The translations under genes were made by a program, and so were the position numbers. Below the pieces are notes generated by a model. That model did not search any database and had not been told where the DNA came from. It saw only the letters and a list, made by a program, of their open reading frames with translations. This document shows, in pieces, positions 4,604-63,242 of a DNA stretch of 64,000 bases (the first letter of the stretch is position 1; each line of letters starts with the position of its first letter). Origin of the DNA: an uncultured Gammaproteobacteria bacterium (GTDB lineage: Bacteria > Patescibacteriota > Microgenomatia > JALYQM01); NCBI GenBank assembly GCA_964403585.1, contig CAYOFQ010000001.1:896680-960679 (forward strand), given 5' to 3'.

Positions 4604-5074
4604 TTATTGCAAAACCTCTTTAACGATCTTTTGGACAACCGTACCGTCGGCTTTACCTTTCAGTTCCTGCATTACCGGGCCCATTAACTTGCCCATTTCG
4701 GCAGGGGAGGAAACTCCGGCTGCTTCTTTATGCTTTAACACCACGGCACGAATGGCATCCTCACTCATCTGTTCAGGCAAGTACTCCTGAATGATGGTAG
4801 CTTCGGCATGCTCTTTATCGGCCAGTTCAGGACGGGAGGCTTCAGTATAACTCTGAATGGCATCCCGTCGCTGTTTTATCTGCTTGGTAAGTACATTTAA
4901 TACTTCTTCATCAGACAAGGCCTGATCCGATTGACCATATTTTTCAATTTTATAATTCTTGCAGGCAGCAATAGACATCCGGAGCACTTGTAATCTCACT
5001 TCGTCATGAGCTTTCATAGCACTCTTCATGTCTTCATACAAACGATCAAATAAAGTCATAATTTTTTCTCTCAA
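4604..5074 (-). CDS. GatB/YqeY domain protein
   Basis: 156 aa; helical GatB/YqeY-like composition (MTLFDRLYEDMKSAMKA...); often adjacent to rpsU. Confidence 0.65.
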   Translation of the reverse strand: MREKIMTLFDRLYEDMKSAMKAHDEVRLQVLRMSIAACKNYKIEKYGQSDQALSDEEVLNVLTKQIKQRRDAIQSYTEASRPELADKEHAEATIIQEYLPEQMSEDAIRAVVLKHKEAAGVSSPAEMGKLMGPVMQELKGKADGTVVQKIVKEVLQ

Positions 5075-10321: not shown

Positions 10322-11323
10322 ATGTATATGCAACCAGTCAGTTCCAAAAAGTACTTTTTACTTGCATGCCTGATCGCCTTTGTCGTGCTCATCATCGCGG
10401 TAGCCGGCAAAGTTATGCTCGGGCACGGGGGACGCAACATGGTCCTGTACAATCAGAAGTACGGCTACGGTGTAGCTCCAAGTACACCACAAACAGCCCC
10501 CGAAATGTCCTCCTACGGCGAAGGTAGTTTTGGTCGTGGAGCCGACTCCAAAATTGCAATTGATAGCACCGGCCAAACCGCCGATCTGATCGCCCCGGGG
10601 GTGCCGGTACCAATTCCGCCACGCGACTCCACACCCGTTGCCGGAGCCGACCGCAAAATTATCAAGAACGGCAATGTCAGCGTAGTTGTTAAGGACGTCG
10701 ATCAAGCCAGCAAAGCAATCGAAAACAAAGCTAAAGAATTAGGTGGATACCTATCGGCAACAAATATAAATTCGAGTGGGAATAACACCAAGTCAGGCTA
10801 TGTTTCGGCCCGCATTCCGGTAGATAAAGTAAACGATTTCCTGGCCTTCCTACGTTCATCATCGGTTAAAGTTTCCAGCGAAAATATCAATTCTGATGAC
10901 GTAACCAGCCAGTATATCGATTTACAGGCTAAAATTACGAATCTTGAAGCAACGGCAACTCAATATCGTGATTTGCTCAAGAGAGCAGTTAAAGTTGAAG
11001 AAGTACTACAAGTACAACGTGAATTAAATAACGTTCAAACAGAGATTGATTCATATAAAGGACAACTTAAATATCTGGAAGGCAATGCCTCCTTATCCAA
11101 TATTACGGTCAACTTGGCAGTTGATGAAGGTGAACTCCCGATCGCGCCTGAAAACAAATGGGAACCGGGCAATGTGTTCAAAGCTTCAATACGCGGATTA
11201 ACCACACTCGCTCAAAACCTATCGTACGCCGTAATTATGCTGGCTGTCTATGCAGTAGTCTGGATTCCGGTTACCATTGGATTGATCTTACTCTATAAAT
11301 TCTTACGAAAGAGAATCCAATAG
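10322..11323 (+). CDS. DUF4349-like membrane-anchored protein
   Basis: 333 aa; N-terminal TM, central coiled coil (DLQAKITNLEATATQYRDLLKRA...), C-terminal TM; architecture typical of DUF4349. Confidence 0.45.
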   Translation: MYMQPVSSKKYFLLACLIAFVVLIIAVAGKVMLGHGGRNMVLYNQKYGYGVAPSTPQTAPEMSSYGEGSFGRGADSKIAIDSTGQTADLIAPGVPVPIPPRDSTPVAGADRKIIKNGNVSVVVKDVDQASKAIENKAKELGGYLSATNINSSGNNTKSGYVSARIPVDKVNDFLAFLRSSSVKVSSENINSDDVTSQYIDLQAKITNLEATATQYRDLLKRAVKVEEVLQVQRELNNVQTEIDSYKGQLKYLEGNASLSNITVNLAVDEGELPIAPENKWEPGNVFKASIRGLTTLAQNLSYAVIMLAVYAVVWIPVTIGLILLYKFLRKRIQ

Positions 11324-11769: not shown

Positions 11770-13125
11770 ATGTCCTTTTCCTATAAAACGATTGCTCAAG
11801 ACAAACACTCCCGCGCCCGTGCCGGAGTACTGGAAATTAACGGTAATTTTGTCGAAACACCGGTCTATATGCCGGTGGGAACACAGGCAACAGTAAAATC
11901 CTTAACTCCCGACGATCTGGAACAAATCGGAGCACAAATTATTCTTGCCAATACCTATCATTTGTACCTGCGTCCGGGTGCTGAAATTATCGAGAAAATG
12001 GGTGGACTGCACAATTTTGTGAATTGGAAAAAACCGATTCTCACCGACAGCGGGGGATTTCAGGTATTTTCACTGGGCTATGCCATCGAACATCAGGTCG
12101 GAAAAATCGCCAATATTTTTCCTGCCGAAAAAGGGGGCATTCTTAATCTCCCAGCTAAAATTAAAGAGGAAATTATGGACACACCTCGCAGATTCGGTGA
12201 AAATGAACACGCGATACAACTCCGCAATCCGCAAAACACTGCCGTGAGTTTGGATGTAAAACTGGCGAAAATCCACGATGACGGAGTAACCTTTACCTCA
12301 CATATTGACGGAACTAAGCACCAGTTTAACGCCGATGTATCAATTAGAACACAACACAAACTTGGGGCAGATATCATTCTGGCATTTGACGAATGTCCTT
12401 CACCTTTACATGATTACGACTATACAAAAACATCACTTGAACGCACCAACCGCTGGGAAAAAGAATCACTGGAAGTTCACCGGAAACTCGAATCACAGAA
12501 ACACCGTGAAACAACAACGCAGCGTTATCCATATCCGCATGCTCAATATCTGTTTGGTATCCCGCATGGTGGTGCCTGGCAGGATCTGCGTGAAGCATCG
12601 GCCCGCTATATTTCAGGATTAGATTTTGCCGGATTTTCGATTGGCGGATCCTTAGGCAATACCAAATCCGATATGCATAAAGTTCTTGAATGGCAAATTC
12701 CTCTCCTCGGCGAAGAACGGCCACGGCATTTACTCGGCATCGGTGACGTCGACGACTTTTTTGAATGTATTGAACGGGGTATTGATATGTTTGATTGCGT
12801 AGCACCCACCCGCATTGCCCGCAATGGGGCACTGCACATTTCACCATCTGAAGGGGGAAATAAAGGAAATAAATTCCGTCTCCTCATTTTAAATGCCGAA
12901 TACAAAGAAGATGCGCAACCAGTCGACAAAACCTGCACCTGTTATACGTGTCAGAACTTCTCGCGTGCATACATTCGCCATCTGTTTGTGGCCAAAGAAT
13001 TACTGGCCTATCGTCTCGCAACAATCCACAATGTTCATTTCATGATCCAGCTGGTCAAACAAGTCCGGCAGGCTATTCTGGAAGACCGGTTTGCAAAAAT
13101 GAAGGAAGAGTGGCTTAATAGATAG
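11770..13125 (+). CDS. tgt: queuine tRNA-ribosyltransferase
   Basis: 451 aa; TPVYMPVGTQATVK, ANTYHLYLRPG, Zn site CTCYTCQNFSRAYIRHL; ~50-aa insertion after FQVFSLGY relative to canonical Tgt. Confidence 0.9.
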   Translation: MSFSYKTIAQDKHSRARAGVLEINGNFVETPVYMPVGTQATVKSLTPDDLEQIGAQIILANTYHLYLRPGAEIIEKMGGLHNFVNWKKPILTDSGGFQVFSLGYAIEHQVGKIANIFPAEKGGILNLPAKIKEEIMDTPRRFGENEHAIQLRNPQNTAVSLDVKLAKIHDDGVTFTSHIDGTKHQFNADVSIRTQHKLGADIILAFDECPSPLHDYDYTKTSLERTNRWEKESLEVHRKLESQKHRETTTQRYPYPHAQYLFGIPHGGAWQDLREASARYISGLDFAGFSIGGSLGNTKSDMHKVLEWQIPLLGEERPRHLLGIGDVDDFFECIERGIDMFDCVAPTRIARNGALHISPSEGGNKGNKFRLLILNAEYKEDAQPVDKTCTCYTCQNFSRAYIRHLFVAKELLAYRLATIHNVHFMIQLVKQVRQAILEDRFAKMKEEWLNR

Positions 13126-18264: not shown

Positions 18265-19698
18265 GTGGCCAAACCAAGCGGTTTCTATGGCTCACCGGCA
18301 CGTACCGCAATTGGATTAGTAACAAATCCGGGCGAATTTGACCATAGTCCTGATAAACGCATCGACTTTTTTATGCCCGGTTCGCATGAAGAACGCTGGG
18401 TAGTCGGGTATAAAATTAGCGGCACAGCATATAAAGGTTCAAATGCTGCGCGCATGAACGTAACCGATATCTCCGACAACACAGTTACCGATACCAGTAG
18501 CGTAAATACATTATCGGCATATAGTGTTGGCACGTTCAATTCGGTATTAAAAGTGGAGCAAACATACCAATTCGACGTTAATGATGCTTTCTTTAAAACA
18601 ACTGTTATTCTCACCAACACCAGCGGAGGCTCAATCGATAGCGTCCGGTATATGCGTACATTTGATCCTGACAATACCTCTGATCAGGGCGGAGCCACGT
18701 CAACCCGCAACGAAGTGCAGTATACCTATGCCGCAGACGGTAAAGCCGTAGTTGAAGCACGTACCAGTAGTGATTCCGACCCGGTCTACACGGCAACCGG
18801 CTCCCAGGCACCGATCCTTTTTTACTCAACCGACAGTCGTGCAGTCACTTCAACATTTGGATTCAGCAACAACGATCCCTATGCGGCCTTAGCCTACGAC
18901 AGTCCACGAGCCAAAAACTCGGTACTCACGGGAGACAACGCCATAACCATAGCCTTCGATGTTGGCACACTCGCAGCTGCATCTTCCTCGACTTTTGTAT
19001 ATTACACCAGTTTAGATAGCCGAGATTTTAACACCGTTATCAGCGCCATCAGCGGAACAAGCGCAACACCAACACCAACCACAACACCGGTTATCCATAC
19101 TGCCGTTACACCACCGGTCTGTTCAGACACCAAACCATTGGGCGTACCGGACCTCTATCAAATCGACACTACCCAGAACAACGCCGCGCTCTATTTTACC
19201 CCGGTCCCAGACCAGGCCACATACTATTACGCAGCCTACGGCTATACACCCGAGGCCAAGGAATTCGGCGTTAAGATTGACTTGCCTGACGCACACGGAG
19301 CTCAGAAATATACGATCAACAAACTTGAAAAAAATATTGAATATTACTTTAAACTACGCGCCGGAAACGGCTGTGCTACCGGGGAATGGAGTCCACCATT
19401 CAAAGCCAAGACCTCCTCCAATACGGTCGCGTATTATAAAAACACCAATTCACTTTTCTCACTCAGTGGCGCTCGGGCAGTATTAGGAACCAGAACAACC
19501 GCCCCAGAACAATCAAACAGCAACACTTCGTGTGACTATACGGTACAAGCAGGGGATTCTTTGTGGTCAATATCAGCAAAATTTTTAGGAAAGGGAAGTG
19601 CATATGCTACACTGCGAAGCAAAAACACTTCAAACTATCCAACATTACACGAATCCACCAGACTGCGAACCGGTTGGACATTAAATACCTGTACATAA
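18265..19698 (+). CDS. surface protein with C-terminal FN3-like + LysM module (start uncertain)
   Basis: C-terminal LysM (CDYTVQAGDSLWSISAKF...) preceded by an FN3-like domain (YYFKLRAGNGCATGEWSP). First in-frame start is GTG at 18265 and no signal peptide is evident; strong GGAGG at 18211-18215 precedes an in-frame ATT. Confidence 0.55.
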   Translation: MAKPSGFYGSPARTAIGLVTNPGEFDHSPDKRIDFFMPGSHEERWVVGYKISGTAYKGSNAARMNVTDISDNTVTDTSSVNTLSAYSVGTFNSVLKVEQTYQFDVNDAFFKTTVILTNTSGGSIDSVRYMRTFDPDNTSDQGGATSTRNEVQYTYAADGKAVVEARTSSDSDPVYTATGSQAPILFYSTDSRAVTSTFGFSNNDPYAALAYDSPRAKNSVLTGDNAITIAFDVGTLAAASSSTFVYYTSLDSRDFNTVISAISGTSATPTPTTTPVIHTAVTPPVCSDTKPLGVPDLYQIDTTQNNAALYFTPVPDQATYYYAAYGYTPEAKEFGVKIDLPDAHGAQKYTINKLEKNIEYYFKLRAGNGCATGEWSPPFKAKTSSNTVAYYKNTNSLFSLSGARAVLGTRTTAPEQSNSNTSCDYTVQAGDSLWSISAKFLGKGSAYATLRSKNTSNYPTLHESTRLRTGWTLNTCT

Positions 19699-19708
19699 TA
19701 CAAAAACT

Positions 19709-20038
19709 ATGAACAATCAATCAAAAATACCCGCAAAAGTAACGTACCAGATCCAACTTGGCCGTTTCAGTATCGTCTATGTATTACTACTGATGGGGAT
19801 TTCTTCAATCACCGCCGCCATAATCACCGGAATGATACTCTTCCCGCAGAAACGGACCAGAGAACATTTATACCGATACACACTCATAGGCATAGCCAAC
19901 TATCTCAGTCTCATTGGAGCATATGTGGCCATGAAGAAATTACTCCCGGGGAAGCAGCGCACGTTTCTACTAACTTTCTCACTAAGTGTTCTGCTAATCG
20001 GCGCACTTATTACCGCAGTAATGAACATGACCCTATAA
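19709..20038 (+). CDS. hypothetical small membrane protein
   Basis: 109 aa, three predicted TM helices. Confidence 0.35.
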   Translation: MNNQSKIPAKVTYQIQLGRFSIVYVLLLMGISSITAAIITGMILFPQKRTREHLYRYTLIGIANYLSLIGAYVAMKKLLPGKQRTFLLTFSLSVLLIGALITAVMNMTL

Positions 20039-21526
20039 GCGAATCAGTAATCGAACTTCATCACGCAGAAAATATAACCCAACCAAACTCCCGGCAACCA
20101 CTGCAGCTAAAGAAGAAATCACTGCCGGAGCAGGGAACACATACATGATCGCATACATAATTGCCGCACTGCCGAAACACGACGCTCCCGTCCGGATCAG
20201 GGTACGCCGCACCACCCATAAAACAGGCATCGATTTACTGAGCAGATAAAACAACGCTCCGACCTCAAAGGCCACGGTCAAAGAATCGAAGAAGGCCAAA
20301 CCGACCGCGCCCCACGGTTCCAGAAACACAATACTCAAACCAATATACAAAAACATTCGTACCAGTGTAATCATAAAGGGAGTACGACTATCCTGCTGCG
20401 CGTAGTATGCCCGGGTAACTATCTCCAGCAAACACTGGGCAAATAGACCGACTAAATACGCTTTAGTCGTTAAACTAAGAAGAGTGCTGGCTTCTGTAGA
20501 AAAATGAAAGAGCGGACCGATCAGGGAATCCAAACCAACCGAAAGTACAACAGTTATTAAAACTGAGATTGAAAAAACAACCCGAATTGCCGTATGCAGG
20601 GTATCGGCAAACGCTTCAGTTTTTTTTTCATCGGCAAAATGGGCCAGCGTCGGCAACAGGGCTGTAGCAATAGCAGTCCCGATTAACGTTTCAGGGACCT
20701 GCAGAATAAAATACCCGTACGTTAAAGCTGAAACTGCACCTTCATGCAGCCGGGAGGCCAAATTATCGCGGGTAAGAAAGATTATCTGGATAAAAAGTAC
20801 GGTCAAAATCCGCGGGCCCATTAACCGCAATACTTTACGGACGCCTTCATCATGCCAACCGAATGTAGGGGACCAGACAAACCCGTATTTAATCATCCCG
20901 GGGATCTGAACCATCAGGTGGAGCACGGCACCAAGAATTACCCCATACGCTAACCCATACACTCCTAGATTGAAATAGGGAGCGAGTATGACTGCTCCAA
21001 AAATTTGACCAACGTTATACAGTATCGGAGCAATCGCCGGCAAGACAAAACTTTTGTGTGACTGCAACGCAGCCATTACCAAACCGCCTAAGGAAAAAAT
21101 AAGTGTAGCAATTAAATTTAACTGCATCAGCCGTGCCGTCAGTTGCTGCTGCTGGGGAGAAAAACCGGGAGCAATACCAAATTCGGCCGAGACAATTTGC
21201 CGGGCGAATATTGCCACAAGAATTGATAAGATTGCCGTAGCCACAAACACCAGATTCGCGATTCGTGAAAAGAGCAGCCAGGCATCCGAACGACCGCGCT
21301 TATCGATATATTCAGTTAACACCGGAATAAAGGCTAAAGCGAGTGCACCACCGGAAATGAGGGAAAATAAAAGATCAGGAACATTATTCGCCACGTTAAA
21401 TGCATCAATCGCCGGGCTTAAGCCAAACTCGCGGGCAATCAACCCCTGACGAACAAGCGCTACCAGTTTATTTACCCCAAAGAAAAAAGAGAGCAGTAGC
21501 GTTATGCGGAATAAGCGCGACATCAT
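20033..21526 (-). CDS. murJ: lipid II flippase MurJ (MviN family)
   Basis: 497 aa polytopic membrane protein; N-terminus MMSRLFRITLLLSFFFGVNKLVALVRQGLIAREFG and length typical of MurJ/MviN. Confidence 0.75.
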   Translation of the reverse strand: MMSRLFRITLLLSFFFGVNKLVALVRQGLIAREFGLSPAIDAFNVANNVPDLLFSLISGGALALAFIPVLTEYIDKRGRSDAWLLFSRIANLVFVATAILSILVAIFARQIVSAEFGIAPGFSPQQQQLTARLMQLNLIATLIFSLGGLVMAALQSHKSFVLPAIAPILYNVGQIFGAVILAPYFNLGVYGLAYGVILGAVLHLMVQIPGMIKYGFVWSPTFGWHDEGVRKVLRLMGPRILTVLFIQIIFLTRDNLASRLHEGAVSALTYGYFILQVPETLIGTAIATALLPTLAHFADEKKTEAFADTLHTAIRVVFSISVLITVVLSVGLDSLIGPLFHFSTEASTLLSLTTKAYLVGLFAQCLLEIVTRAYYAQQDSRTPFMITLVRMFLYIGLSIVFLEPWGAVGLAFFDSLTVAFEVGALFYLLSKSMPVLWVVRRTLIRTGASCFGSAAIMYAIMYVFPAPAVISSLAAVVAGSLVGLYFLRDEVRLLIRL

Positions 21527-21610: not shown

Positions 21611-24600
21611 ATGGCTTCTGAAATTAACGAACTGATTGCGCTATTAAATAAAAAGGGAGTATCAACCGATACAATTCGTCAGGAACTTACTTCTTCGGTC
21701 CGCGAAGCCTATGATCTCTGGACTCACCAGCATGACGATTCGGTAACGGTTGATATTGACAAGCACTCCGAAGCGATTCATATTTCCAAAGATGGAAAAG
21801 ATATCACCCCGCCTGACTTTACTCCCGCAGCCCAACAGGCCGCCCGTAAGAAACTCATCGCCTTAATTGCCCAGGCCGATACACAGAATCATGTGATTCG
21901 GGCCAGCCGTGGCTTTGGCGGCCTTATTCATGTTGTATTCTGGTTTTACAACGGACTGTACATTTTGTTCACCATTCTTTTTGCGACCTATATTCTTCCA
22001 TCCATCACAATTACAGACTGGATTGAACTCATCACCACCCAACCGATAATGCGTACCGTTATTCCGTTGCTCGTGATGTGTTTACCGTACATTACGTTGG
22101 CAGTAGTAATCAGAAAAAAAGTATACACATCAACTACTGGATTGGCTAAACTATTTTTCCTTTTTGAAATTCCACTGTTAGCACTGAGTTTTATCTCATT
22201 TAATGTCTTAAGCGAAGCCATCCTGCCAGTCTGGGTACTTTTCACCATCCTGCTTCTGATTCCTTTTTACTGGCTGTTTGAAACACTACACCTGGCTAAA
22301 ATCAACGCGGTTACTCTGATTCTTTCGCATGGCATAAAAATAATAATCTTGGGGACAACTGCGTATATCGGACTGATACTCGCGTTTTTCCTTCCTCTTA
22401 TCGTAACCGGATTCATTAAAATGCTCTGGACCATTGTTACCGAAATAGGGAACGGTTCCGGCTATTTCTATTTCAACTTCTTCTCGGTAATAATGGGACT
22501 GATCTTCGGATCTTTAATAGTATTATCAATCGCGCTCTTAATCGCGCTTCCATACTTCTTAACCTACACAATGTGGAAGTCTGCCCAAAAAAGTTGGAAG
22601 GAAATTGCCCAGCGATTTAACGTAGGCACCGCTCAACTGATAACCACCAGCCCAGCACTGCTGTTATTCGTAGCATTATTCTTCTCTGCAATACAGCCGG
22701 ATACGCTGCCCTTGATTAACAAAACCGAACTGGTAAAAAATCTCCCCACCTTTGAACAACGCTCACAATTAGCCGGAGAACTGCGTCCGCACAAAGAAAC
22801 TCTGCGCAAAGGAATTCTTGATTCTGCTAATGCCAACAACCGCTATCTGTTTATTAAAGGCGACAACATGCTCCAGGACATGTATGAAAGCGTCTTCGAA
22901 ACCAATCTAAACTCCTTTTGGCTTATACAGGAGGCGTTTGATGTCGTTGTCTATCCGTTTGTCTACCGGGGACCGCAATTAGGATACAACTCGGTTGTAC
23001 AAAATAACTATCAGTATCTCTTTGGCAAAACAATTTATGCTCAGGACAACACCAACACATCCGGCACGGTTAAACGCACCGAACGAAAAATAACCGCCAA
23101 AAGTATCCGTAACGGGTTATTCGCCGATGTCACGATCGAAGAAAGCTTTACCAACTCCTCATTTTCCGATGAGGAAGTAATCTACGAATTTTCGCTACCA
23201 CCAGATGCCGTAATTACCGGACTTAAACTGGGTCCACAGCTCGAGTACCCAGGAATAATTGCACCACGCGGGGCAGCAGCTTCAACCTACCAGCGGGAAG
23301 TTAACCGGTTCCGTGACCCTGCCTTGCTTGAACAAACCGGACCGCAACAATACCGGTTGCGGATATTTCCTATTCCGGGTAAGGTCAACTCCGGAAGCAC
23401 CACTGCAGAAAAGCAAAAAGTACAGTTTACCTATCTGGTAAGTCTTAATCAGGATGGCTTCGCACTCCCGGCCTATACGAAAGAACAAAACATTAATAGT
23501 ACTGCGAAGGGAACAATCACCGGTCAACTGGACAATACTTCGGTTAAGCTTGACGCAAAATCGATGGTAATTCCTGTCAAAAATGCCCGGGCAACGCTGT
23601 GTAACAATACTCCCGGCGACATCCAGATTAAAAGCAGTACCTATGAAGGACTTCTGCACTACACCAAAGCTGGCTGCAATAGCCCCACCGCAGTGAAAGA
23701 CCAACGCATCGCCATTCTCTACGACACTTCCGCACTACGTGAAGAAACGACACAGTGGCGGGAACTGCTAAGTTTCATCAGGGATAATCCTTCATTTATT
23801 ACAAATAATACCGTCGATCTTTATTTCTTTAACGATTTGGTCAGTACAAAAATCCCGTTGAACGCAACCAACCTCCCCAAAGAACCAACCTATTTTGGCC
23901 AGCGCGAAAAAACACTGCCGGTACCGCGGGTACCGGAAAATTACTCCGCACTCGTGATCCTGACCGACAAGGAATTCACCATACCAACAAATTCATCCGA
24001 TCCTTCCGGAACCGGAACTAGGATGCATATTGCGTATGCTGAAGGCAAAGTCCCACCATTCAATCAGGCATTAACCCGCTTGATAGTTCAGTCTGAAACC
24101 GGTATCTATACCAGCGTACAGGACGCTTTATTGAACACCGGCGCAGTGCCGTCTGATAACGAGGACGTAATCCTCACCAAAACACCGTATTGGACATTAA
24201 GCCGTACATCCGATCTCAATGCACCGGTCGCTGACAAACAATTCTCGGCACTGCTGATTAATAAAGAAATAGAGAAGATCATTAGCGAGTACGATGGTGC
24301 TCTGGAACAAAATATTGCCTATGCCGATACACTATACCTGGAAGCCAAGAATGTGCAGGTCGTAACCTTACTTTCATCGCTTATCGCACTCGTAAATGAA
24401 CGTCAGGAGCAGGATCTGTATTACGATTCCCAAAAATACGACCGGTATACCGACCCGAATTCTCCGTCGGGTTCACAAATACAGTTACCACTGCCAACAC
24501 GATCAACGAACGGGTTCAACAGCCTCGATACTGTCGGAAGCAGTGCGTATGGGTTCTCGGATATCGGCAGTGCAATTGGGGGAATTGTTAATTTGTTCCT

Positions 24601-24682
24601 GCTTGCTAATGCCGCACTCGTCGGCTTAGCAGCCCTTATTTATGGAGTCCGGAAGATTAGAGCCCGCAATTATCCGCAATAA
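21611..24682 (+). CDS. large polytopic membrane protein with VIT-like and vWA-like extracytoplasmic domains
   Basis: 1023 aa. N-terminal ~100 aa soluble, then ~8 TM helices. Central VIT-like segment (YEFSLPPDAVITGLKL...RDPALLEQTGPQQYRLRIFPIP), then a vWA-like segment with partial MIDAS (IAILYDTSAL). C-terminal TM anchor GGIVNLFLLANAALVGLAALIYGV. Confidence 0.6.
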   Translation: MASEINELIALLNKKGVSTDTIRQELTSSVREAYDLWTHQHDDSVTVDIDKHSEAIHISKDGKDITPPDFTPAAQQAARKKLIALIAQADTQNHVIRASRGFGGLIHVVFWFYNGLYILFTILFATYILPSITITDWIELITTQPIMRTVIPLLVMCLPYITLAVVIRKKVYTSTTGLAKLFFLFEIPLLALSFISFNVLSEAILPVWVLFTILLLIPFYWLFETLHLAKINAVTLILSHGIKIIILGTTAYIGLILAFFLPLIVTGFIKMLWTIVTEIGNGSGYFYFNFFSVIMGLIFGSLIVLSIALLIALPYFLTYTMWKSAQKSWKEIAQRFNVGTAQLITTSPALLLFVALFFSAIQPDTLPLINKTELVKNLPTFEQRSQLAGELRPHKETLRKGILDSANANNRYLFIKGDNMLQDMYESVFETNLNSFWLIQEAFDVVVYPFVYRGPQLGYNSVVQNNYQYLFGKTIYAQDNTNTSGTVKRTERKITAKSIRNGLFADVTIEESFTNSSFSDEEVIYEFSLPPDAVITGLKLGPQLEYPGIIAPRGAAASTYQREVNRFRDPALLEQTGPQQYRLRIFPIPGKVNSGSTTAEKQKVQFTYLVSLNQDGFALPAYTKEQNINSTAKGTITGQLDNTSVKLDAKSMVIPVKNARATLCNNTPGDIQIKSSTYEGLLHYTKAGCNSPTAVKDQRIAILYDTSALREETTQWRELLSFIRDNPSFITNNTVDLYFFNDLVSTKIPLNATNLPKEPTYFGQREKTLPVPRVPENYSALVILTDKEFTIPTNSSDPSGTGTRMHIAYAEGKVPPFNQALTRLIVQSETGIYTSVQDALLNTGAVPSDNEDVILTKTPYWTLSRTSDLNAPVADKQFSALLINKEIEKIISEYDGALEQNIAYADTLYLEAKNVQVVTLLSSLIALVNERQEQDLYYDSQKYDRYTDPNSPSGSQIQLPLPTRSTNGFNSLDTVGSSAYGFSDIGSAIGGIVNLFLLANAALVGLAALIYGVRKIRARNYPQ

Positions 24683-24683
24683 C

Positions 24684-25865
24684 TTATTCAACAAAAGTTA
24701 AAGCTTTACCCATTTTATTCGCGCGACCGGTACGGCCGATGCGATGGATATAATCCTCGTATGTCTCAGGAAGTTCGTAATTGATAACGTGCGAAACATC
24801 CGGAATATCCAAACCACGTGCCGCAACATCAGTAGCAACCAGAATCATAATATGATCTTTTTTGAACTTGTTGAGCGCCTGCTGGCGGGCATTCTGTGTT
24901 TTGTCTCCATGAATGGAGTCCACGCGGAACCCGCGGTCGCGAAGCGTATTTGATAATTTATTGACGCCGCGTTTCGTGCGGCCAAAAATCAATACCTTGG
25001 TAAAATCTTCCTGAATCAGCAGTTCGTGTAATACATCAACTTTGTTATCACCGGGGGTCAAACGTACCACATCCTGGTCAACAGTCGCAGCCGTATCGCG
25101 TTTTTTCAAAGAAACAACTACTGGATTCAGCATTTCGGCTCGTACCAGCGCATCGATTTCCCGCGACAGGGTAGCCGAGAAAAACAGCGATTGACGTTGT
25201 TTCGGTAACATACTCAAGAGTTGCTGGATATCTTTGACAAATCCCATATCAAACATCTGATCAACTTCATCAAGTACGACACTGTTAAATCGTGACAGCG
25301 AGATAACTCTTTGATTCAGCAAATCCTTCAATCGGCCCGGAGTAGCAATCACAAAGTTATAGCGGCGTTTTCGCAGATTCTGAATCTGCACGTTCATACT
25401 CGATCCCCCAATACAAACAACGGAGTACAATCCCATGCCATGAGTAAAGGCACGGAATTCATCTTCAATTTGCACTGCCAGTTCACGGGTTGGGGCAATA
25501 ATCAGCACCATTTCCGAACGCTGCAGTAATACTTTATTAATAAGCGGTAACAAAAAAGCTGCCGTTTTACCGGTACCAGTATTAGCAATACCAAGCACAT
25601 CACGACCGGCCAGACCATGAGCAATCGTCTGATCCTGAATCGGTGTTGGGTGTTCGTACCCTCGTTGTGCAATACTGTTTTTTAATTCGGGCACGAAGTT
25701 GAAGTCGGCAAACGCATGCTGCGCAACATATTCCTCTTCGACCTGAAATTCAGGTGTTTTGTTGATAAATTTAGTAATATCGGCAAAAACACCACGCGGG
25801 CGCTTACCTTGATTAAAATTGCCACGTTTAGGTCGTGACTGACCGTTAAAACTACGGAAAGACAT
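24684..25865 (-). CDS. DEAD-box ATP-dependent RNA helicase
   Basis: 393 aa; Q-motif, motif I ANTGTGKTAAF, Ia PTRELA, motif II as DEVD (VLDEVDQMF), III SAT, VI HRIGRTGRA. Confidence 0.9.
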   Translation of the reverse strand: MSFRSFNGQSRPKRGNFNQGKRPRGVFADITKFINKTPEFQVEEEYVAQHAFADFNFVPELKNSIAQRGYEHPTPIQDQTIAHGLAGRDVLGIANTGTGKTAAFLLPLINKVLLQRSEMVLIIAPTRELAVQIEDEFRAFTHGMGLYSVVCIGGSSMNVQIQNLRKRRYNFVIATPGRLKDLLNQRVISLSRFNSVVLDEVDQMFDMGFVKDIQQLLSMLPKQRQSLFFSATLSREIDALVRAEMLNPVVVSLKKRDTAATVDQDVVRLTPGDNKVDVLHELLIQEDFTKVLIFGRTKRGVNKLSNTLRDRGFRVDSIHGDKTQNARQQALNKFKKDHIMILVATDVAARGLDIPDVSHVINYELPETYEDYIHRIGRTGRANKMGKALTFVE

Positions 25866-26058: not shown

Positions 26059-26595
26059 ATGATGCAATCAAAAAAATCTCCAATCCTGTGGTTAGCAATA
26101 CTGTGGGTCATCGCCGTCATTATCGTTGCAGGCACCATGCTTTTCGGTAAAAAACCGGAAAATTCACCCGCCCCAACCGGCAACCCTGTCATCAAAACTC
26201 CAACCATCACGACGTTCGAAGAATGTATAAAAGCCGGCTATCCGGTCATGGAAAGCTATCCGCGACAATGCAAAGCACCCAATGGTATTACCTACACCGA
26301 AACTATTAATCAGACTTTTGCACCGGAGGAACGTATCACTAAAAAAGGGAAACTGGTCTGCCTGCCGCACAAAAACCCCGGCGAAGTGCAAACCATGGAA
26401 TGCGCGTATGGTCTCCTTGCCGAAGACAATAAATATTACTCACTCAACGATACTGATCCCGAATATAAAAATATCTCAACAGCCCCTATGAATGAACCTG
26501 TTCAAGTCACCGGAAAGCTTACACTAAAAGAGGATCGAATATATGCGTCTATTGGAGTTATCGATGTAGTGGAAATTACAAAAGCTTTAAACTGA
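26059..26595 (+). CDS. hypothetical secreted/membrane-anchored protein
   Basis: 178 aa; N-terminal TM/signal, Cys-containing soluble domain. Confidence 0.4.
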   Translation: MMQSKKSPILWLAILWVIAVIIVAGTMLFGKKPENSPAPTGNPVIKTPTITTFEECIKAGYPVMESYPRQCKAPNGITYTETINQTFAPEERITKKGKLVCLPHKNPGEVQTMECAYGLLAEDNKYYSLNDTDPEYKNISTAPMNEPVQVTGKLTLKEDRIYASIGVIDVVEITKALN

Positions 26596-27714
26596 ATTTA
26601 ACGCGTCGCGAGCCGCCTGCATCGAATCATTATACTGCACAGCTTTTTTATACTCTTCCCGGGCAGCTTCGCGCTTTCCCTGTTTTATATATACATCACC
26701 ACGCAACAAATACAACTCTGAAAAAGCACGATTGTGATTATTCAAAATAGACTCTGATATCGATAATACCTTGTCATATTGTCCAAGTTCATAATATGCA
26801 CGGAGAGGCTCGATCTGATACCACAAAGTACGAAACGACAATCTGGATTGCACTTTTTCAAATTCCTGCACCGATCGACGGTAATCTCCGGTATAGTAGG
26901 CGGCTACGGATAAATTGAATCGGGCATCCACATTTTCCGGATCCTGTTGCAGCTGTTTCTCAGATAACTCGATAGCATGGGTCCAGGCAGTCTTCTCATC
27001 CAAATCAGCACCCAAAATTGTCTCGGCGAGGGTTTGTTTATCTTTCGGCACCAGCACCAGATATTCATAATTGAATTTATCCCAGATTTCATTGAAGGCT
27101 TCATAGGTATAGACTAAGTTTTTTCCCTGATACGAATCATCCTGAATAAATACCCGCTGGTTATCGTCATACCCGCGCATCATCCGGTAATGGCCAATAT
27201 CATCATTCGGTTTCAGCCAGGTTACCGTAATCACCGGCATATCGTGCGCTATAAACTGCTTCAGCAATTCCGGAGTACCATTCGGCCGATGATAGGCGAG
27301 CAGACCAAATTCCTCTGCCTTAGCCCCCAACTCATCCAGCGAAACAGATTTATCATCATTATCTCCATTTTTTACCTGATACGGCCGTAAGGCTTTTCCA
27401 AGCTCTTCCTGACTTTTATATATGCCATAATAGGAAAGTGCCATCGACAGTGACGCCGGACCGCAGTTATTAAATGTTTGAAACACATGACGGGATTCCG
27501 GCAATACTTTTACCCGAGGAATCGCTCCTACTGTGGGGGTTGGATCACCGTCCGGCTCGGCACTGACAACCGGCCGCGGCGAGGTACTCACTGCCGGAAT
27601 TGGGGCATACGTAGGAAAAACCTCATGCCGATCCAGAAATTTTTTGCCCAAAAAGGCAACCGGTAATCCCGCAAAAACGAGAACAATCACACCACCAAGC
27701 AGATATTTTTTCAT
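26587..27714 (-). CDS. peptidase C39-like domain protein with TPR repeats
   Basis: 375 aa; N-terminal TM; FQTFNNCGPASLSMALSYYG catalytic Cys region of C39_2-like peptidases; C-terminal TPR repeats. Confidence 0.55.
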   Translation of the reverse strand: MKKYLLGGVIVLVFAGLPVAFLGKKFLDRHEVFPTYAPIPAVSTSPRPVVSAEPDGDPTPTVGAIPRVKVLPESRHVFQTFNNCGPASLSMALSYYGIYKSQEELGKALRPYQVKNGDNDDKSVSLDELGAKAEEFGLLAYHRPNGTPELLKQFIAHDMPVITVTWLKPNDDIGHYRMMRGYDDNQRVFIQDDSYQGKNLVYTYEAFNEIWDKFNYEYLVLVPKDKQTLAETILGADLDEKTAWTHAIELSEKQLQQDPENVDARFNLSVAAYYTGDYRRSVQEFEKVQSRLSFRTLWYQIEPLRAYYELGQYDKVLSISESILNNHNRAFSELYLLRGDVYIKQGKREAAREEYKKAVQYNDSMQAARDALNSV

Positions 27715-29343: not shown

Positions 29344-29788
29344 CGTCCGCCAGGAACTCGAACGGTTAGCTTATCAGTCAACGACGCCGATCGTCGGAAT
29401 CATACTGGAAGGCTACCGCAAGATCGCCTGGCAGCGAAACCTCATTAATCTCGTCGGCTACGTTTTCGCCGGCCTCGTGGTGATCTCGATCGAACTGGAG
29501 GCCCAGCTGCCAAACCCGGCCGAGGCCATCCTCATTCTGGTCACCTTCGCGCTATATATCCTGGCGGCGTGGAAGTCGACTCATAAACGCGTCACCCGAG
29601 GGCTGTTTCGTCGCACACTCAAAGTCGGGACGCTGGTCGCGCTCCCTGTTGTCGTGATGACAAGCGAACTGCTGGGTGTGAACATAACCACGGTCACGCA
29701 GCCGGTTTTGATCGACGCCGTCAGCCGCGGTCTTGCCTGGTGGGCAGTGATGCTCGCGATCACGTTCATCGTGGTCGACCAGGCCTAG
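29276..29788 (+). CDS. hypothetical 4-TM membrane protein within GC-rich patch (start uncertain, possibly fragment)
   Basis: ORF body from ~29343 is ~58-60% GC versus ~42% background. The only ATG (29276) lies in the AT-rich part and overlaps DUF1761 head-to-head; no in-frame start occurs inside the GC-rich portion. Confidence 0.35.
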   Translation: MIEPKLCNTSAAKHPPVTPANNTVRQELERLAYQSTTPIVGIILEGYRKIAWQRNLINLVGYVFAGLVVISIELEAQLPNPAEAILILVTFALYILAAWKSTHKRVTRGLFRRTLKVGTLVALPVVVMTSELLGVNITTVTQPVLIDAVSRGLAWWAVMLAITFIVVDQA

Positions 29789-29973
29789 ACAACATGAGGT
29801 ATAGACAGCAGCAGCTTGTAAAACGGATGGACGACACCAAGTCGGGAAGATTAGCCGCTCTGCGACTAAGCCTTTCTTACTTACCGTCGCTCACCCGCGC
29901 TGTTGCTCTCTATACCTCATCCTCAAAAGATATTCTTGATTTATATAAAACCTGTAGCTACGCTAGAGTAGCT

Positions 29974-31560
29974 ATGCTAAAACTAAAATTGAAGTATATT
30001 CTTCTTCTGGGAGTTCTCTTCTTAATATATCCTCATACCATTTCAGCTGCAGTAACTTGGAACGAAACACAGCCCGCCGGTAACACCAATATCTTTTGGC
30101 ACACACTTTCAATATCTTCAGACGGAACAACACTACTAACCGGCGCCGAAAACGGACGACTGTACCGCTCTACCAACGGCGGAAGTTCCTGGACTGAAAC
30201 ACAGCCTGCAGGAAACACAACCGCATATTGGTATGCCAGCGCAATTTCATCAAACGGACAAAAAATGATTGTCGGCGCATCTTCAGGAAGACTATATCTT
30301 TCATCAGACTACGGCGCCAATTGGACCGAAACCCAACCCGATGGCAACAGCACCCGTAGGTGGTCAACTGCTTCAATGTCATCAGATGGACAAACGATAT
30401 TAGTCACCGAGGATAGCGGATTATCCACCAACGGTCGAGCTTTCATCTCTACAAACGGGGGATCAGCATGGACTGAAACGCAGCCTGCGGGAAATGCAGA
30501 CCGCCGATGGATTGCTGCGGGAATATCTTCCGACGGTACAAAAATGGTTCTCACAACCTGGCAGGGATATGGCAGGATTTTTATATCATCAAACAGCGGC
30601 GGAAGCTGGACTGAAGCTCAACCCGCCGGGAATACGGATAAAAACTGGTATGCCGCAGCCGTTTCCGCCGATGGTCAAAAAATCGTCGTGGGATATTCCA
30701 CCGGAAGAATATATCTATCCACGAACGGAGGAAGCACCTGGGCCGAAACACAACCAGCAGGAGACACCAACATCGCCTGGCAGACAGCAGCGATATCATC
30801 TGATGGCCAAACAATTATCGCGGCAGCCTATTCCGGTAGAATGTACTTGACCACCGATGGAGGAACAAACTGGGCGGAAACACAACCCGCAGGTAATACC
30901 AATAGACCATGGATTTATACCGTCATGTCTGCGGATGCAACCGTACTGGCTGGGAACGTTTTCAATGGAAGAGTATATGTAGCAAGCAACCCACTACCGT
31001 CGCCAACACCGGTGCCAACTCGCTACGAGGCACCTGCACCACCAGTCGAAACGCCAAAATGCACTGTAGCAAAACCATCAACACCTGAACTATTCCAAAT
31101 CAGTACAACCGGAACTACAGCCAAACTGTACTATACCCCGAAATTAGGGCCGGGTAATAAAATAGCTATTGCCTACGGATATAAGCCCGGCGAGAACCGC
31201 TTTGGCATTGAGTTTCCCTCATCAAATACACTGGGGATACAAACCTATTCTATCAACTATCTCACACCTAATACGACATATTATTTTCGTCTTCGAGCCG
31301 GCAATGACTGTATGCCCGGAGAGTGGGGAACAGAATTGAAAGCGACAACAAACAACTCAAAACAGGTTACCAAAACGCAGGTACTAGGAACAATCAACTC
31401 AACAACATGCGGAGATTATTCTGTCCAACCGGGTGATTCTCTGTGGAGCATCGCCCGCAACAATCTCGGCTCCGGATCAAAATATCACTATTTGCTCGAG
31501 CAGAATAAACTCTCCTCAGATAAAATTCGCGTTGGGCAAAAACTGAATCTCGGGTGCTGA
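29974..31560 (+). CDS. secreted BNR/Asp-box repeat beta-propeller protein with C-terminal FN3-like + LysM module
   Basis: Signal peptide MLKLKLKYILLLGVLFLIYPHTISA from ATG 29974 (ORF track over-extends to 29740). Eight repeats of (S/T)xNGGxxWTETQPAGNT (BNR SxDxGxTW). C-terminus has an FN3-like domain (YYFRLRAGNDCMPGEWG) and LysM (CGDYSVQPGDSLWSIARN). Confidence 0.7.
   Translation: MLKLKLKYILLLGVLFLIYPHTISAAVTWNETQPAGNTNIFWHTLSISSDGTTLLTGAENGRLYRSTNGGSSWTETQPAGNTTAYWYASAISSNGQKMIVGASSGRLYLSSDYGANWTETQPDGNSTRRWSTASMSSDGQTILVTEDSGLSTNGRAFISTNGGSAWTETQPAGNADRRWIAAGISSDGTKMVLTTWQGYGRIFISSNSGGSWTEAQPAGNTDKNWYAAAVSADGQKIVVGYSTGRIYLSTNGGSTWAETQPAGDTNIAWQTAAISSDGQTIIAAAYSGRMYLTTDGGTNWAETQPAGNTNRPWIYTVMSADATVLAGNVFNGRVYVASNPLPSPTPVPTRYEAPAPPVETPKCTVAKPSTPELFQISTTGTTAKLYYTPKLGPGNKIAIAYGYKPGENRFGIEFPSSNTLGIQTYSINYLTPNTTYYFRLRAGNDCMPGEWGTELKATTNNSKQVTKTQVLGTINSTTCGDYSVQPGDSLWSIARNNLGSGSKYHYLLEQNKLSSDKIRVGQKLNLGC
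30040..30960 (+). repeat. eight tandem ~138-bp coding repeats (BNR blades)
   Basis: Periodic recurrence of ...aacggngga...tggactgaaacncagcctgcnggnaacac... at DNA level; the minus-strand ORFs 30033-30554 are shadows of this repeat. Confidence 0.6.
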
Positions 31561-62294: not shown

Positions 62295-63242
62295 ATGCCC
62301 CAGCAAAGTCTTGATGATTACATAGAAGATTTTTTGAGCCACCTTCAAATTGAAAAGGGCTCTTCCCTACTCACTATCCGCAACTACAAACATTATTTGG
62401 AGAGATTTAAAGAATGGATGGAAAGTGAGAACATCCCCCCTACTCCGCAGAGCATAGATTTGCCTTTAATAAAACAATATCGAGTATATTTGAGCTCATA
62501 TACCGACGAAAAAGGTGAACCGCTCAAACGTTTGACCCAAAATTACTATATCATCGCCATACGCTCATTTTTGAGGTACTTGATGAAGAACGATGTCAAC
62601 ACACTCACGCCCGAAAAAATCGACCTTCCCAAAGCCCAGTCCCGCGAGGTCATGGCGTTAGACAAAGATCAGCTCTACAAACTTCTGAACTGTGTCGACC
62701 TCACCGATACGCTTGGAATGCGCGACAAAGCCATACTCGAGACACTATTCAGCACCGGACTTCGCGTCTCCGAGCTCATTAAGCTCGACCGTGACAAGCT
62801 CGACCTGACGAAGCGGGAAATCACCATCCTCGGTAAAGGCGGCCGACACCGTATCGTATTCTTTACCGAAGATGCAGTCTATTGGATCAACCGGTACCTG
62901 CAAACCCGCACCGACACATTTAAACCCCTATTTATTCGGTATTCGCGAGGCATTGATGCCAACTTAGGCGGAGAGAAAATGCGGCTCACCCAGCGCAGCA
63001 TTCAGCGTGTCGTACAAAAATATGCCAAAAAAGCCAGAATCGATATCAACACCACACCACACGTTCTCAGACATTCCTTTGCTACCGACCTGCTCGTAAA
63101 CGGTGCCGATCTCAGATCAATTCAGGAACTCCTCGGGCATAAATCCATTACAACCACACAAGTCTATACCAACGTCTCAAATAAACACCTCCGCGAAGTC
63201 CACGACGCCTTCCACAGCGGCAATAAAGAACCGAAAGAATAA
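62295..63242 (+). CDS. tyrosine site-specific recombinase (XerC/XerD family)
   Basis: 315 aa. N-terminal SAM-like core-binding domain. Catalytic R (GLRVSEL), K, HVLRHSFATDLLVNGADLRSIQELLGH, and tyrosine in TTTQVYTNV. Confidence 0.85.
   Translation: MPQQSLDDYIEDFLSHLQIEKGSSLLTIRNYKHYLERFKEWMESENIPPTPQSIDLPLIKQYRVYLSSYTDEKGEPLKRLTQNYYIIAIRSFLRYLMKNDVNTLTPEKIDLPKAQSREVMALDKDQLYKLLNCVDLTDTLGMRDKAILETLFSTGLRVSELIKLDRDKLDLTKREITILGKGGRHRIVFFTEDAVYWINRYLQTRTDTFKPLFIRYSRGIDANLGGEKMRLTQRSIQRVVQKYAKKARIDINTTPHVLRHSFATDLLVNGADLRSIQELLGHKSITTTQVYTNVSNKHLREVHDAFHSGNKEPKE

What the first reader, a model, noticed from the sequence alone, without database searches (positions are those of the whole stretch)
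21611..24682. 1023-aa polytopic membrane protein with VIT and vWA-like ectodomains
The architecture is unusual. A cytoplasmic N-domain and ~8 TM helices come first. A long extracytoplasmic region follows, containing a VIT-like segment and a vWA-like segment with a degenerate MIDAS (DTSAL). The protein ends in a C-terminal TM anchor. VIT-vWA pairs are characteristic of inter-alpha-trypsin-inhibitor-like proteins and some bacterial surface and exosortase-associated proteins. Fusion to a large integral membrane core is not a commonly described arrangement.
Basis: partly seen in the sequence, partly recalled or inferred. Interest (0 to 1): 0.5.

Follow-up and report, generated by a model that had tools for sequence, protein, structure and literature searches.

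The report
Membrane VIT-vWA protein with NusA-like head

Summary

The architecture is not new. It is the curated family TIGR02921 ("PEP-CTERM integral membrane protein"), whose cyanobacterial members sit next to a dedicated exosortase O.

This protein belongs to a separate, monophyletic clade found in Patescibacteria/CPR genomes (88 of 226 full-length relatives). That clade:
- lost the PEP motif
- has no nearby exosortase (0 of 19 loci)
- largely lost the MIDAS
- gained a ~92-residue N-domain

My best reading is a doubly anchored surface-binding protein whose cytoplasmic domain docks RNA polymerase. The anatomy is well supported. The function is inferred.

The parts
21611..24682 (+). Whole gene, 1023 codons plus stop. 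It is monocistronic: a divergent MurJ gene (20033-21526, -) lies upstream and a convergent DEAD-box helicase gene (24684-25865, -) lies downstream.
21611..21886 (+). aa 1-92: cytoplasmic homologue of the NusA N-terminal domain. Elements: helix 4-14, helix 19-38, strands 45-49 and 56-60, motif D64-I-T66-P67-x-x-F70, and a helix from aa 71 on.
21887..21919 (+). aa 93-103: low-confidence hinge (pLDDT <50 at aa 93-99) with R97 and R100 just before the first membrane helix.
21920..22687 (+). aa 104-359: polytopic membrane core. It has 8 predicted helices, of which probably 7 span the membrane. Residues conserved across the whole family: F110, N114, P159, E186-x-P188 (a glutamate inside the membrane), Y252, P262, P314.
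22688..23050 (+). aa 360-480: extracytoplasmic helical juxtamembrane region with conserved Y412, Y425, P449 and Y452 (motif AYPFVY.G).
23069..23575 (+). aa 487-655: VIT-type beta-sandwich (Pfam VIT covers aa 498-591). It holds most of the family's invariant residues: E522, F527, L529, P530, D569-PALLE-574, R582-L-R584, P587.
23600..23677 (+). aa 664-689: Cys664...Cys689 pair, conserved in 29 of 30 members of this clade and absent from the cyanobacterial clade. Probably an extracytoplasmic disulfide.
23705..24220 (+). aa 699-870: vWA (Rossmann-like) fold with a degenerate MIDAS. D705, S707 and D786 are kept; the second serine is Leu709.
24236..24430 (+). aa 876-940: helices, then a strand 922-926 (family motif VTPYSS-IALVN), arranged as in ITIH heavy chains, where the C-terminal part rejoins the sandwich. 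Invariant S922, S923, L927, Q932, L936.
   Evidence: (ITIH4 residues 537-599, E 0.0098)
24431..24562 (+). aa 941-984: disordered Ser/Gly-rich linker (pLDDT 35-40). No PEP, LPXTG or other recognisable sorting motif.
24563..24679 (+). aa 985-1023: C-terminal transmembrane helix and basic tail (RKIRAR). It occupies the position of the PEP-CTERM domain of the parent family but lacks the PEP motif.

Best explanation
Shown: the gene encodes a member of a clade, found in Patescibacteria/CPR genomes, of the TIGR02921 family of polytopic VIT-domain envelope proteins. The chain starts in the cytoplasm with a NusA-N-terminal-domain homologue. It crosses the membrane through a conserved 7-8-helix core that carries a buried Glu-x-Pro motif. 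Outside the membrane it displays an ITIH-like module: VIT sandwich, vWA fold, C-terminal return segment. It is fastened a second time by a C-terminal TM helix with a basic tail. Compared with the cyanobacterial parent family, this clade lost the PEP motif, has no nearby dedicated exosortase (XrtO in the cyanobacterial example tested) and has mostly lost its metal-binding MIDAS, and it gained the NusA-like domain in one event.

Inferred: the ectodomain works as a metal-independent binding or scaffolding module at the cell surface. This is by analogy with ITIH heavy chains, which bind several ligands without MIDAS or vWA.

Inferred: the C-terminal helix is a permanent anchor, not a cleaved sorting signal.

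Inferred: the NusA-like domain docks on RNA polymerase at the beta-flap tip. It keeps helices alpha1, alpha2 and the last helix, which form the flap-tip pocket in NusA. The protein would thereby tether or modulate transcription complexes at the membrane, possibly in response to what the ectodomain binds.
For: Family and architecture:
- TIGR02921 matches at E 3.3e-51 and is colinear over 840 residues.
- There are 859 relatives.
- The model has pLDDT 85.4.

Clade features among 226 full-length relatives:
- PEP motif: 1 of 89 with an N-extension against 118 of 137 without (one of the 89, P0086, is a PEP-type protein).
- Strict MIDAS: 11 of 89 against 112 of 137.
- MIDAS columns S709 and D786: 31 of 31 in the PEP clade against 5 of 30 and 4 of 30 here.
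- An NJ tree built without the N- and C-terminal parts still separates the two clades.

Exosortase:
- It lies beside the gene in 25 loci, all without the N-domain.
- It is absent from 0 of 19 N-domain loci and from the whole 64-kb window.

NusA homology:
- Profile E 6.4e-13, 4e-11 and 2.6e-9 to three solved NusA proteins.
- A 5.8-billion-protein search with the N-domain profile returned only NusA.
- The conserved D-x-T-P-x-x-F...A...AR motif aligns with NusA 'TPKDFGRIAAQTAKQ'.
- The flap-tip helix binds the cavity formed by alpha1, alpha2 and alpha4 (PMC5842316).

Topology:
- K/R-rich loops L2, L4, L7 and the tail face inward.
- The conserved Cys pair lies in the ectodomain.

Ligand binding without MIDAS:
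- ITIH HC1 binds vitronectin, fibronectin and TGF-beta LAP without its MIDAS or vWA (PMC7170535).
Against: No experiment exists for any member of the family, and all functional steps are analogy.

NusA residues mapped as important are not all kept:
- The R104 equivalent (position 72) is Pro here and variable in the clade.
- The equivalents of F59 and R61 are Ser and Asp here.
- The 'head' subdomain that contacts the alpha-CTD is trimmed.

The NusA-like helix runs almost directly into TM1, with only about a 10-residue hinge in this protein. That may hinder docking of a 400-kDa enzyme.

The conserved buried Glu186 suggests the core has an activity of its own (transport or catalysis) that this explanation does not account for.

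No conserved gene neighbourhood supports any pathway.

The score is below the TIGR02921 trusted cutoff (174.5 against 200).

Only 64 kb of the genome was seen, so an exosortase elsewhere cannot be excluded.
Confidence: 0.5

Rival explanations
1. A pure surface adhesin or receptor. The ITIH-like module binds host or matrix material, which is plausible for episymbiotic CPR bacteria. The membrane core and C-terminal helix are only anchors. The NusA-like domain is a reused fold that mediates oligomerisation or binds some non-RNAP partner.
For: The ITIH/vWA fold is typical of adhesive extracellular proteins. The R104, F59 and R61 equivalents are not conserved. There is no conserved neighbourhood with transcription genes across the 19 loci.
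Against: The N-domain is clearly homologous to NusA and hits nothing else. Its most conserved residues coincide with NusA's most conserved helix. The membrane core is far more conserved (E186-x-P188, N114, Y252) than a passive anchor needs to be.
Confidence: 0.25
2. The conserved polytopic core is the active part: a transporter, flippase or intramembrane enzyme acting on an envelope polymer. The VIT-vWA module would be its extracytoplasmic substrate-handling or regulatory domain.
For: A buried acidic residue (E186, 97% and 88% in the two clades) and conserved N114, Y252 and helix-kinking prolines. Envelope glycan genes lie nearby in the window and in the syntenic locus L002: GT2, GHMP kinase, MurJ, YfhO, GT4.
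Against: No sequence or fold match to any transporter or enzyme family. The neighbouring genes differ between loci.
Confidence: 0.15
3. It is still an exosortase or sortase substrate with a divergent sorting signal, and the C-terminal helix is removed after export as in canonical PEP-CTERM proteins.
For: The tail keeps the TM-plus-basic layout of PEP-CTERM and descends from it. Some CPR genomes do encode the PEP type with an adjacent exosortase (L025, L028).
Against: One PEP motif among 89 sequences with an N-terminal extension (the exception, P0086, is a PEP-type protein). No LPXTG. No exosortase in 19 loci or in the 64-kb window. The stretch before the helix is a variable Ser/Gly linker with no shared motif.
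Confidence: 0.07
4. Artefact: a chimeric ORF made by mis-assembly or a frameshift joining a nusA fragment to a membrane-protein gene.
For: None found.
Against: The identical protein occurs on three independent contigs, including a Logan assembly of run SRR16481187. The same N-domain-to-core junction is present in 88 cluster representatives from many MAGs.
Confidence: 0.01

Closest known systems
TIGR02921 'PEP_integral' family (PEP-CTERM integral membrane protein), in cyanobacteria paired with exosortase O (XrtO, TIGR04489)
   Same: It is colinear over the membrane core, juxtamembrane helices, VIT, vWA and the C-terminal return segment (profile 10-876 of 922, E 3.3e-51). It shares the core motifs F110/N114, E186-x-P188, Y252 and P314, and has a C-terminal TM helix with a basic tail.
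   Different: It scores below the trusted cutoff (174.5 against 200). It has no PEP motif, no adjacent exosortase and a degenerate MIDAS. It has an extra ~100-residue NusA-like N-domain and an extra Cys pair. It occurs in CPR genomes rather than cyanobacteria.
MSEP-CTERM (TIGR04286) and XrtN-system VIT domain protein (TIGR04477)
   Same: Their VIT regions match weakly but specifically, and in MSEP-CTERM the VIT lies at about the same position (E 5e-6 and 4e-5). For MSEP-CTERM, homologue P0004 aligns from its last core helices through VIT (aa 288-602 against profile 277-574).
   Different: Only the VIT region matches in the window protein. These families carry their own sorting tails and, from my recollection of the NCBIfam descriptions and not tested here, their own dedicated exosortases.
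Inter-alpha-trypsin-inhibitor heavy chains (ITIH1 structure 6FPY)
   Different: About 10% identity. The MIDAS is incomplete. The module is fused at both ends to membrane segments. Nothing suggests the ester-linkage chemistry of ITIH.
NusA N-terminal domain (Pfam PF08529; structures 2MT4, 1K0R, 1HH2, 2KWP)
   Different: It is followed by a membrane core instead of the S1 and KH domains. The head subdomain is trimmed. The R104 equivalent is not conserved. The protein is therefore not a NusA orthologue.

Membership tests
TIGR02921 (PEP-CTERM integral membrane protein) | Score at or above the curated whole-protein cutoff (200 bits) | tested here: not met
   174.5 bits, E 3.3e-51. The clade-mate P0004 scores 222 and the cyanobacterial P0050 scores 828.6.
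TIGR02921 (PEP-CTERM integral membrane protein) | Colinear polytopic core plus large extracytoplasmic region containing VIT | tested here: met
   aa 107-946 align with profile positions 10-876 of 922. Conserved core residues are shared by both clades.
TIGR02921 (PEP-CTERM integral membrane protein) | C-terminal PEP-CTERM sorting domain (PEP motif, TM helix, basic cluster) | tested here: not met
   The TM helix and basic tail are present but there is no PEP motif. The profile match stops at position 876 of 922. The motif occurs in 1 of 89 sequences with an N-terminal extension (the exception is a PEP-type protein), against 118 of 137 of the others.
TIGR02921 (PEP-CTERM integral membrane protein) | Dedicated exosortase (XrtO-type) encoded next to the gene | tested here: not met
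   tblastn with two exosortases found none in the 64-kb window or in the 19 N-domain loci, against 25 loci of the PEP type. The rest of the genome was not available.
ITIH-like VIT-vWA module | VIT domain | tested here: met
   PF08487, E 1.5e-12, 48.1 bits against a cutoff of 26.5.
ITIH-like VIT-vWA module | vWA domain | tested here: inconclusive
   [not shown]
ITIH-like VIT-vWA module | Complete MIDAS (D-x-S-x-S ... D) | tested here: not met
   The site reads D705-T-S707-A-L709. D786 is kept here but is present in only 4 of 30 clade members, and S709 in 5 of 30. The PEP clade has both in 31 of 31.
NusA N-terminal domain (PF08529) | Sequence similarity to the domain | tested here: met
   The single sequence falls below the Pfam cutoff (14.3 bits, E 0.049). 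A profile of 20 orthologous domains hits solved NusA proteins at E 6.4e-13, 4e-11, 2.6e-9 and 3.2e-9.
NusA N-terminal domain (PF08529) | Fold | tested here: met
   [not shown]
NusA N-terminal domain (PF08529) | [quoted passage not shown] | tested here: not met
   The K111 equivalent is Arg in 26 of 30. The R104 equivalent is Pro here and variable in the clade.
NusA N-terminal domain (PF08529) | Binding to the RNA polymerase beta-flap tip helix | not testable with these tools
   This needs a binding assay or complex prediction with the cognate beta subunit.
NusA (full-length transcription factor) | S1 and KH RNA-binding domains after the N-terminal domain | tested here: not met
   The domain is followed by the membrane core, and there are no S1 or KH hits.
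Sortase (LPXTG) substrates | LPXTG-like motif before the C-terminal TM helix and basic tail | tested here: not met
   The sequence before the helix is ...SSAYGFSDIGSAIGG, with no LPXTG.

The most novel reading that the evidence does not exclude
The protein is a single-chain link between the cell surface and RNA polymerase. A NusA-derived domain holds transcribing polymerase, through the beta-flap tip, at a membrane protein whose ITIH-like ectodomain senses or binds an external partner. This would give these tiny, host-dependent CPR bacteria either a direct outside-to-transcription signalling route or a dedicated anchor for transcription at the membrane.
Probability: 0.2. Interest if true: 0.85.

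Novelty: new variant of a known kind. Interest (0 to 1): 0.58.

Why it matters
NusA's N-terminal domain is the handle by which an essential elongation factor grips RNA polymerase.

Here a clear homologue of it is welded to a polytopic envelope protein with an integrin/ITIH-like ectodomain. This is conserved across many Patescibacteria lineages, which points to physical coupling between the envelope and transcription that I did not find described. Four full-text literature searches bearing on this returned nothing relevant, and the precomputed annotations list only VIT.

It also gives a natural experiment for the unexplained TIGR02921/exosortase O system. One clade keeps PEP, MIDAS and the exosortase; the other drops all three together.

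If the N-domain does not bind polymerase, the result is still a useful reannotation of a large, unannotated family.

Tried and rejected
- **Full-length word-indexed search:** found only the protein itself, apparently because hydrophobic words saturated the candidate list. Searching the ectodomain alone gave 191 hits.
- **Genome-contig scan with the single protein:** found nothing. The scan with alignment A4 worked.
- **Exosortase-like nature of the core** (suggested by a UniRef name 'Exosortase' for P0083): rejected. There is no Exosortase_EpsH hit at E<=10, and exosortase is a separate neighbouring gene.
- **Conserved neighbours among 19 N-domain loci:** none. The position of P0004 right after rpoB-rpoC is not repeated elsewhere and is treated as coincidence.
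- **nusA in the window or fetched loci:** none found, so the fused domain could not be compared with the same genome's own NusA.
- **N-domain profile against 5.8 billion proteins:** only two hits, both NusA. This supports the homology but says nothing about other architectures.
- **Literature searches** for TIGR02921, MSEP-CTERM, exosortase plus VIT, and NusA plus Patescibacteria: nothing relevant.
- **Naming the organism via cluster members:** no names. The taxonomic placement rests only on which MAGs carry the closest relatives.
- **Assembly-fusion and low-complexity explanations:** rejected.
Full report
**Observation.** The window has an uninterrupted ATG-to-stop ORF at 21611-24682 (+) encoding 1023 residues. 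It stands alone. A MurJ gene diverges from it upstream (20033-21526, -) and a DEAD-box helicase gene converges on it downstream (24684-25865, -). The identical protein is recorded on three contigs, one of 1.57 Mb. Hydropathy shows eight hydrophobic stretches between aa 104 and 360 and one at aa 985-1014, followed by KIRAR. Pfam finds VIT at aa 498-591 (E 1.5e-12) and no VWA model at E<=10.

**Family.** NCBIfam TIGR02921, 'PEP_integral / TIGR02921 family PEP-CTERM protein', aligns with aa 107-946 over profile positions 10-876 of 922. The score is 174.5 bits (E 3.3e-51), below the 200-bit cutoff. There are weak VIT-region matches to MSEP-CTERM, to the XrtN-system VIT protein and to a marine sortase target. 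Haft et al. 2006 already noted one family of integral-membrane PEP-CTERM proteins (PMC1569441). So a polytopic core followed by a VIT-containing ectodomain and a C-terminal anchor is a catalogued, though uncharacterised, arrangement.

A word-indexed search with the full protein found only itself. The ectodomain alone found 191 relatives. An exhaustive HMMER search found 859 cluster representatives at E<=1e-3 and 163 at E<=1e-30, nearly all 850-1340 aa and colinear. This rules out an assembly fusion.

**Structure.** An AlphaFold2 model built on 48 sequences has mean pLDDT 85.4 and pTM 0.73.
- Foldseek against the PDB puts ITIH heavy chain 1 (6FPY) first (E 3e-14, 613 aligned columns) and finds the CLCA1 VWA domain at probability 1.0.
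- The order of elements matches the published HC1 organisation (PMC7170535): sandwich aa 487-655, vWA aa 699-870, helices aa 876-914, then return strand aa 922-926 carrying the family motif VTPYSS-IALVN.

**MIDAS.** HC1 chelates Mg2+ with D298, S300, S302 and D403. The equivalent positions here are D705, S707, L709 and D786.

**Two clades.** I sorted 226 full-length relatives by whether the first membrane helix starts after residue 70.

| Feature | With N-terminal extension (89) | Without (137) |
|---|---|---|
| PEP motif in the tail | 1 | 118 |
| Strict D-x-S-x-S-[MN] | 11 | 112 |
| C-terminal TM helix | 87 | 90 |

The single PEP-bearing sequence in the first column (P0086) is a PEP-type protein. 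It was excluded from the later clade comparisons, which leaves 88 clade members.

Column counts agree. S709 and D786 are present in 31 of 31 PEP-clade sequences but in only 5 of 30 and 4 of 30 of this clade. A Cys664/Cys689 pair is present in 29 of 30 here and is a gap in cyanobacteria. A neighbour-joining tree built only from the core and ectodomain columns separates the two groups cleanly.

**Exosortase partner.** In Kovacikia the gene lies directly after an exosortase that scores 495.7 bits on exosortase O, TIGR04489. In a metagenomic PEP-type locus, an exosortase gene overlaps the gene's end. tblastn with these two enzymes against all 88 fetched loci and the whole window found an adjacent exosortase in 25 loci. 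All 25 are of the type without the N-domain. They include Magasanikbacteria, Roizmanbacteria and Gastranaerophilales loci whose proteins end in VPEPEEW. None was found in the 19 N-domain loci or anywhere in the 64-kb window.

**Neighbourhood and distribution.** The 19 N-domain loci share no conserved neighbour. Locus L002, with the closest relative (49% identity), is syntenic with the window: GHMP kinase, GT2, EVE, the gene, then the helicase. In GTDB species representatives, full-length matches occur in Woesebacteria, Shapirobacteria, Gottesmanbacteria, Roizmanbacteria, Microgenomates-group and Paceibacterota MAGs. None exceeds 32% identity. The window therefore most likely comes from a divergent Patescibacteria/CPR genome. 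This is an inference, because no rRNA gene was found in the window.

**The N-domain.** Pfam gave only a sub-threshold NusA_N match for this protein (aa 10-60, E 0.049), and 5 of 48 relatives reach E<=0.01 (best 1.2e-4).

I aligned 20 N-domains and searched the profile against all PDB sequences.
- B. subtilis NusA-NTD (2MT4): E 6.4e-13.
- M. tuberculosis NusA (1K0R): E 4e-11, in one stretch covering profile 1-93.
- T. maritima NusA (1HH2, 1L2F): E about 3e-9.
- A further NusA entry (6J9E): E 5e-6.
- E. coli NusA-NTD (2KWP): E 1e-3.
- Nothing else was significant except one designed repeat protein at E 0.0017.

The clade consensus is M.SEF..L.DLA...G..HS.L...I....L..Y...YP..P....V.VD...G.VR......D.TP..F...A...AR. 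It lines up with NusA helices alpha1 and alpha2, strands beta1 and beta2, and the highly conserved 'TPKDFGRIAAQTAKQ' helix.

**What the NusA homology does and does not imply.**
- Ma et al. 2015 mapped flap-tip binding to F59, R61, E94 and Q96. They showed that R104 and K111 are essential for pause enhancement but not for binding (PMC4357713).
- Guo et al. 2018 saw the flap-tip helix inserted into a hydrophobic cavity formed by alpha1, alpha2 and alpha4, while the 'head' (alpha3, beta3, beta4) touches an alpha-CTD (PMC5842316).
- In this clade alpha1, alpha2 and the last helix are kept. The head is reduced to a few residues. The K111 equivalent is Arg in 26 of 30. The R104 equivalent is variable (Pro here), and the F59 and R61 equivalents are Ser and Asp here.
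- I infer that docking on the flap tip is plausible and that pause-hairpin stabilisation is unlikely. Neither can be tested with these tools.
- The domain has no signal peptide and precedes a K/R-flanked first helix, so it is cytoplasmic.

**Membrane core and topology.** Across 48 homologues, loops L2, L4 and L7 and the C-terminal tail are K/R-rich, and helix 261-280 is only weakly hydrophobic. This fits seven spanning helices plus one non-spanning helix, with the N-terminus inside and the ectodomain outside. The conserved Cys pair is consistent with that.

In a 226-sequence alignment, both clades conserve F110, N114, P159, E186-x-P188, Y252, P262 and P314. In the juxtamembrane region they conserve Y412, Y425, P449 and Y452. 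A nearly invariant glutamate inside the membrane suggests the core does more than anchor, but no fold or sequence relative indicates what.

**Interpretation.** What is shown is the anatomy, the family membership at superfamily level, the clade-specific loss of PEP, MIDAS and exosortase, and the NusA homology of the N-domain.

What is inferred is the function: a permanently doubly anchored, metal-independent binding module outside the membrane, and a polymerase-docking domain inside. The rivals are listed with their tests: a plain adhesin with a reused fold, an active transporter or enzyme core, and a cryptic sorting substrate. An assembly artefact is excluded.

**Novelty and score.** The variant found here adds a NusA-NTD, lacks PEP-CTERM and is restricted to CPR. 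It is not annotated in the precomputed domain tables (only VIT is listed), and none of the literature searches found it. I rate it a new variant of a known kind, interest 0.58, with a 0.2 chance of the more striking reading that it couples the cell surface directly to RNA polymerase.

Noticed in passing
L021:5962-8976: A relative from an unclassified MAG ('bacterium isolate ELA691') has neither the NusA-like N-domain nor a PEP motif. It has a plain C-terminal TM helix with a basic tail. It may be an intermediate between the two clades.
   Followed up: partly
L007:723-11216: In one Pacebacteria-like contig the homologue P0004 lies directly downstream of rpoB-rpoC on the same strand. This is suggestive given the NusA-like domain, but it is not repeated in the other 18 N-domain loci.
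   Followed up: partly
L010, L014, L015, L016: Four TPA MAGs labelled 'uncultured Gammaproteobacteria' or 'Pseudomonadales' encode the N-domain (CPR-type) protein. The labels look like mis-assignments.
   Followed up: no
P0121 (1338 aa), P0123 (1315 aa), P0127 (1223 aa), P0149 (1235 aa): Some clade members are 200-300 residues longer, and their match to the query is split into two stretches. This implies an inserted extra domain in the ectodomain.
   Followed up: no
window 22196-22198 (aa 196) versus the PEP clade: The PEP clade has a conserved Arg (87%) at the end of core helix 3 that this clade lacks. This is a further clade-specific change inside the membrane core.
   Followed up: no
window 10322-11323 (+): A 333-aa DUF4349 protein (E 1.1e-52) has an N-terminal TM helix and a C-terminal TM helix with a KFLRKRIQ tail. 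It is another doubly anchored envelope protein in the window.
   Followed up: partly
window 18265-19698 (+) and 29740-31560 (+): Two large secreted-type proteins end in LysM domains. One has an fn3-like segment and a GTG start. The other has Sortilin/BNR repeats. Together with MurJ, this points to a peptidoglycan-bearing envelope.
   Followed up: no
window 26587-27714 (-): A membrane-anchored Peptidase_C39-like cysteine protease fused to TPR repeats lies about 2 kb downstream of the gene. It is also partly visible in L001.
   Followed up: no
window 11770-13125 (+): The tRNA-guanine transglycosylase (Tgt) is 451 aa against a 368-position profile that it matches end to end, so it carries about 80 inserted residues.
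   Followed up: no
window 4604-5074 (-): A stand-alone 156-aa protein matches only the C-terminal tail of GatE (YqeY/GatB-C-like domain).
   Followed up: no
window 62295-63242 (+): A tyrosine recombinase (Phage_integrase plus SAM-like N-domain). It could be XerC/D or a marker of a mobile element near the window end.
   Followed up: no
[not shown]
   Followed up: no
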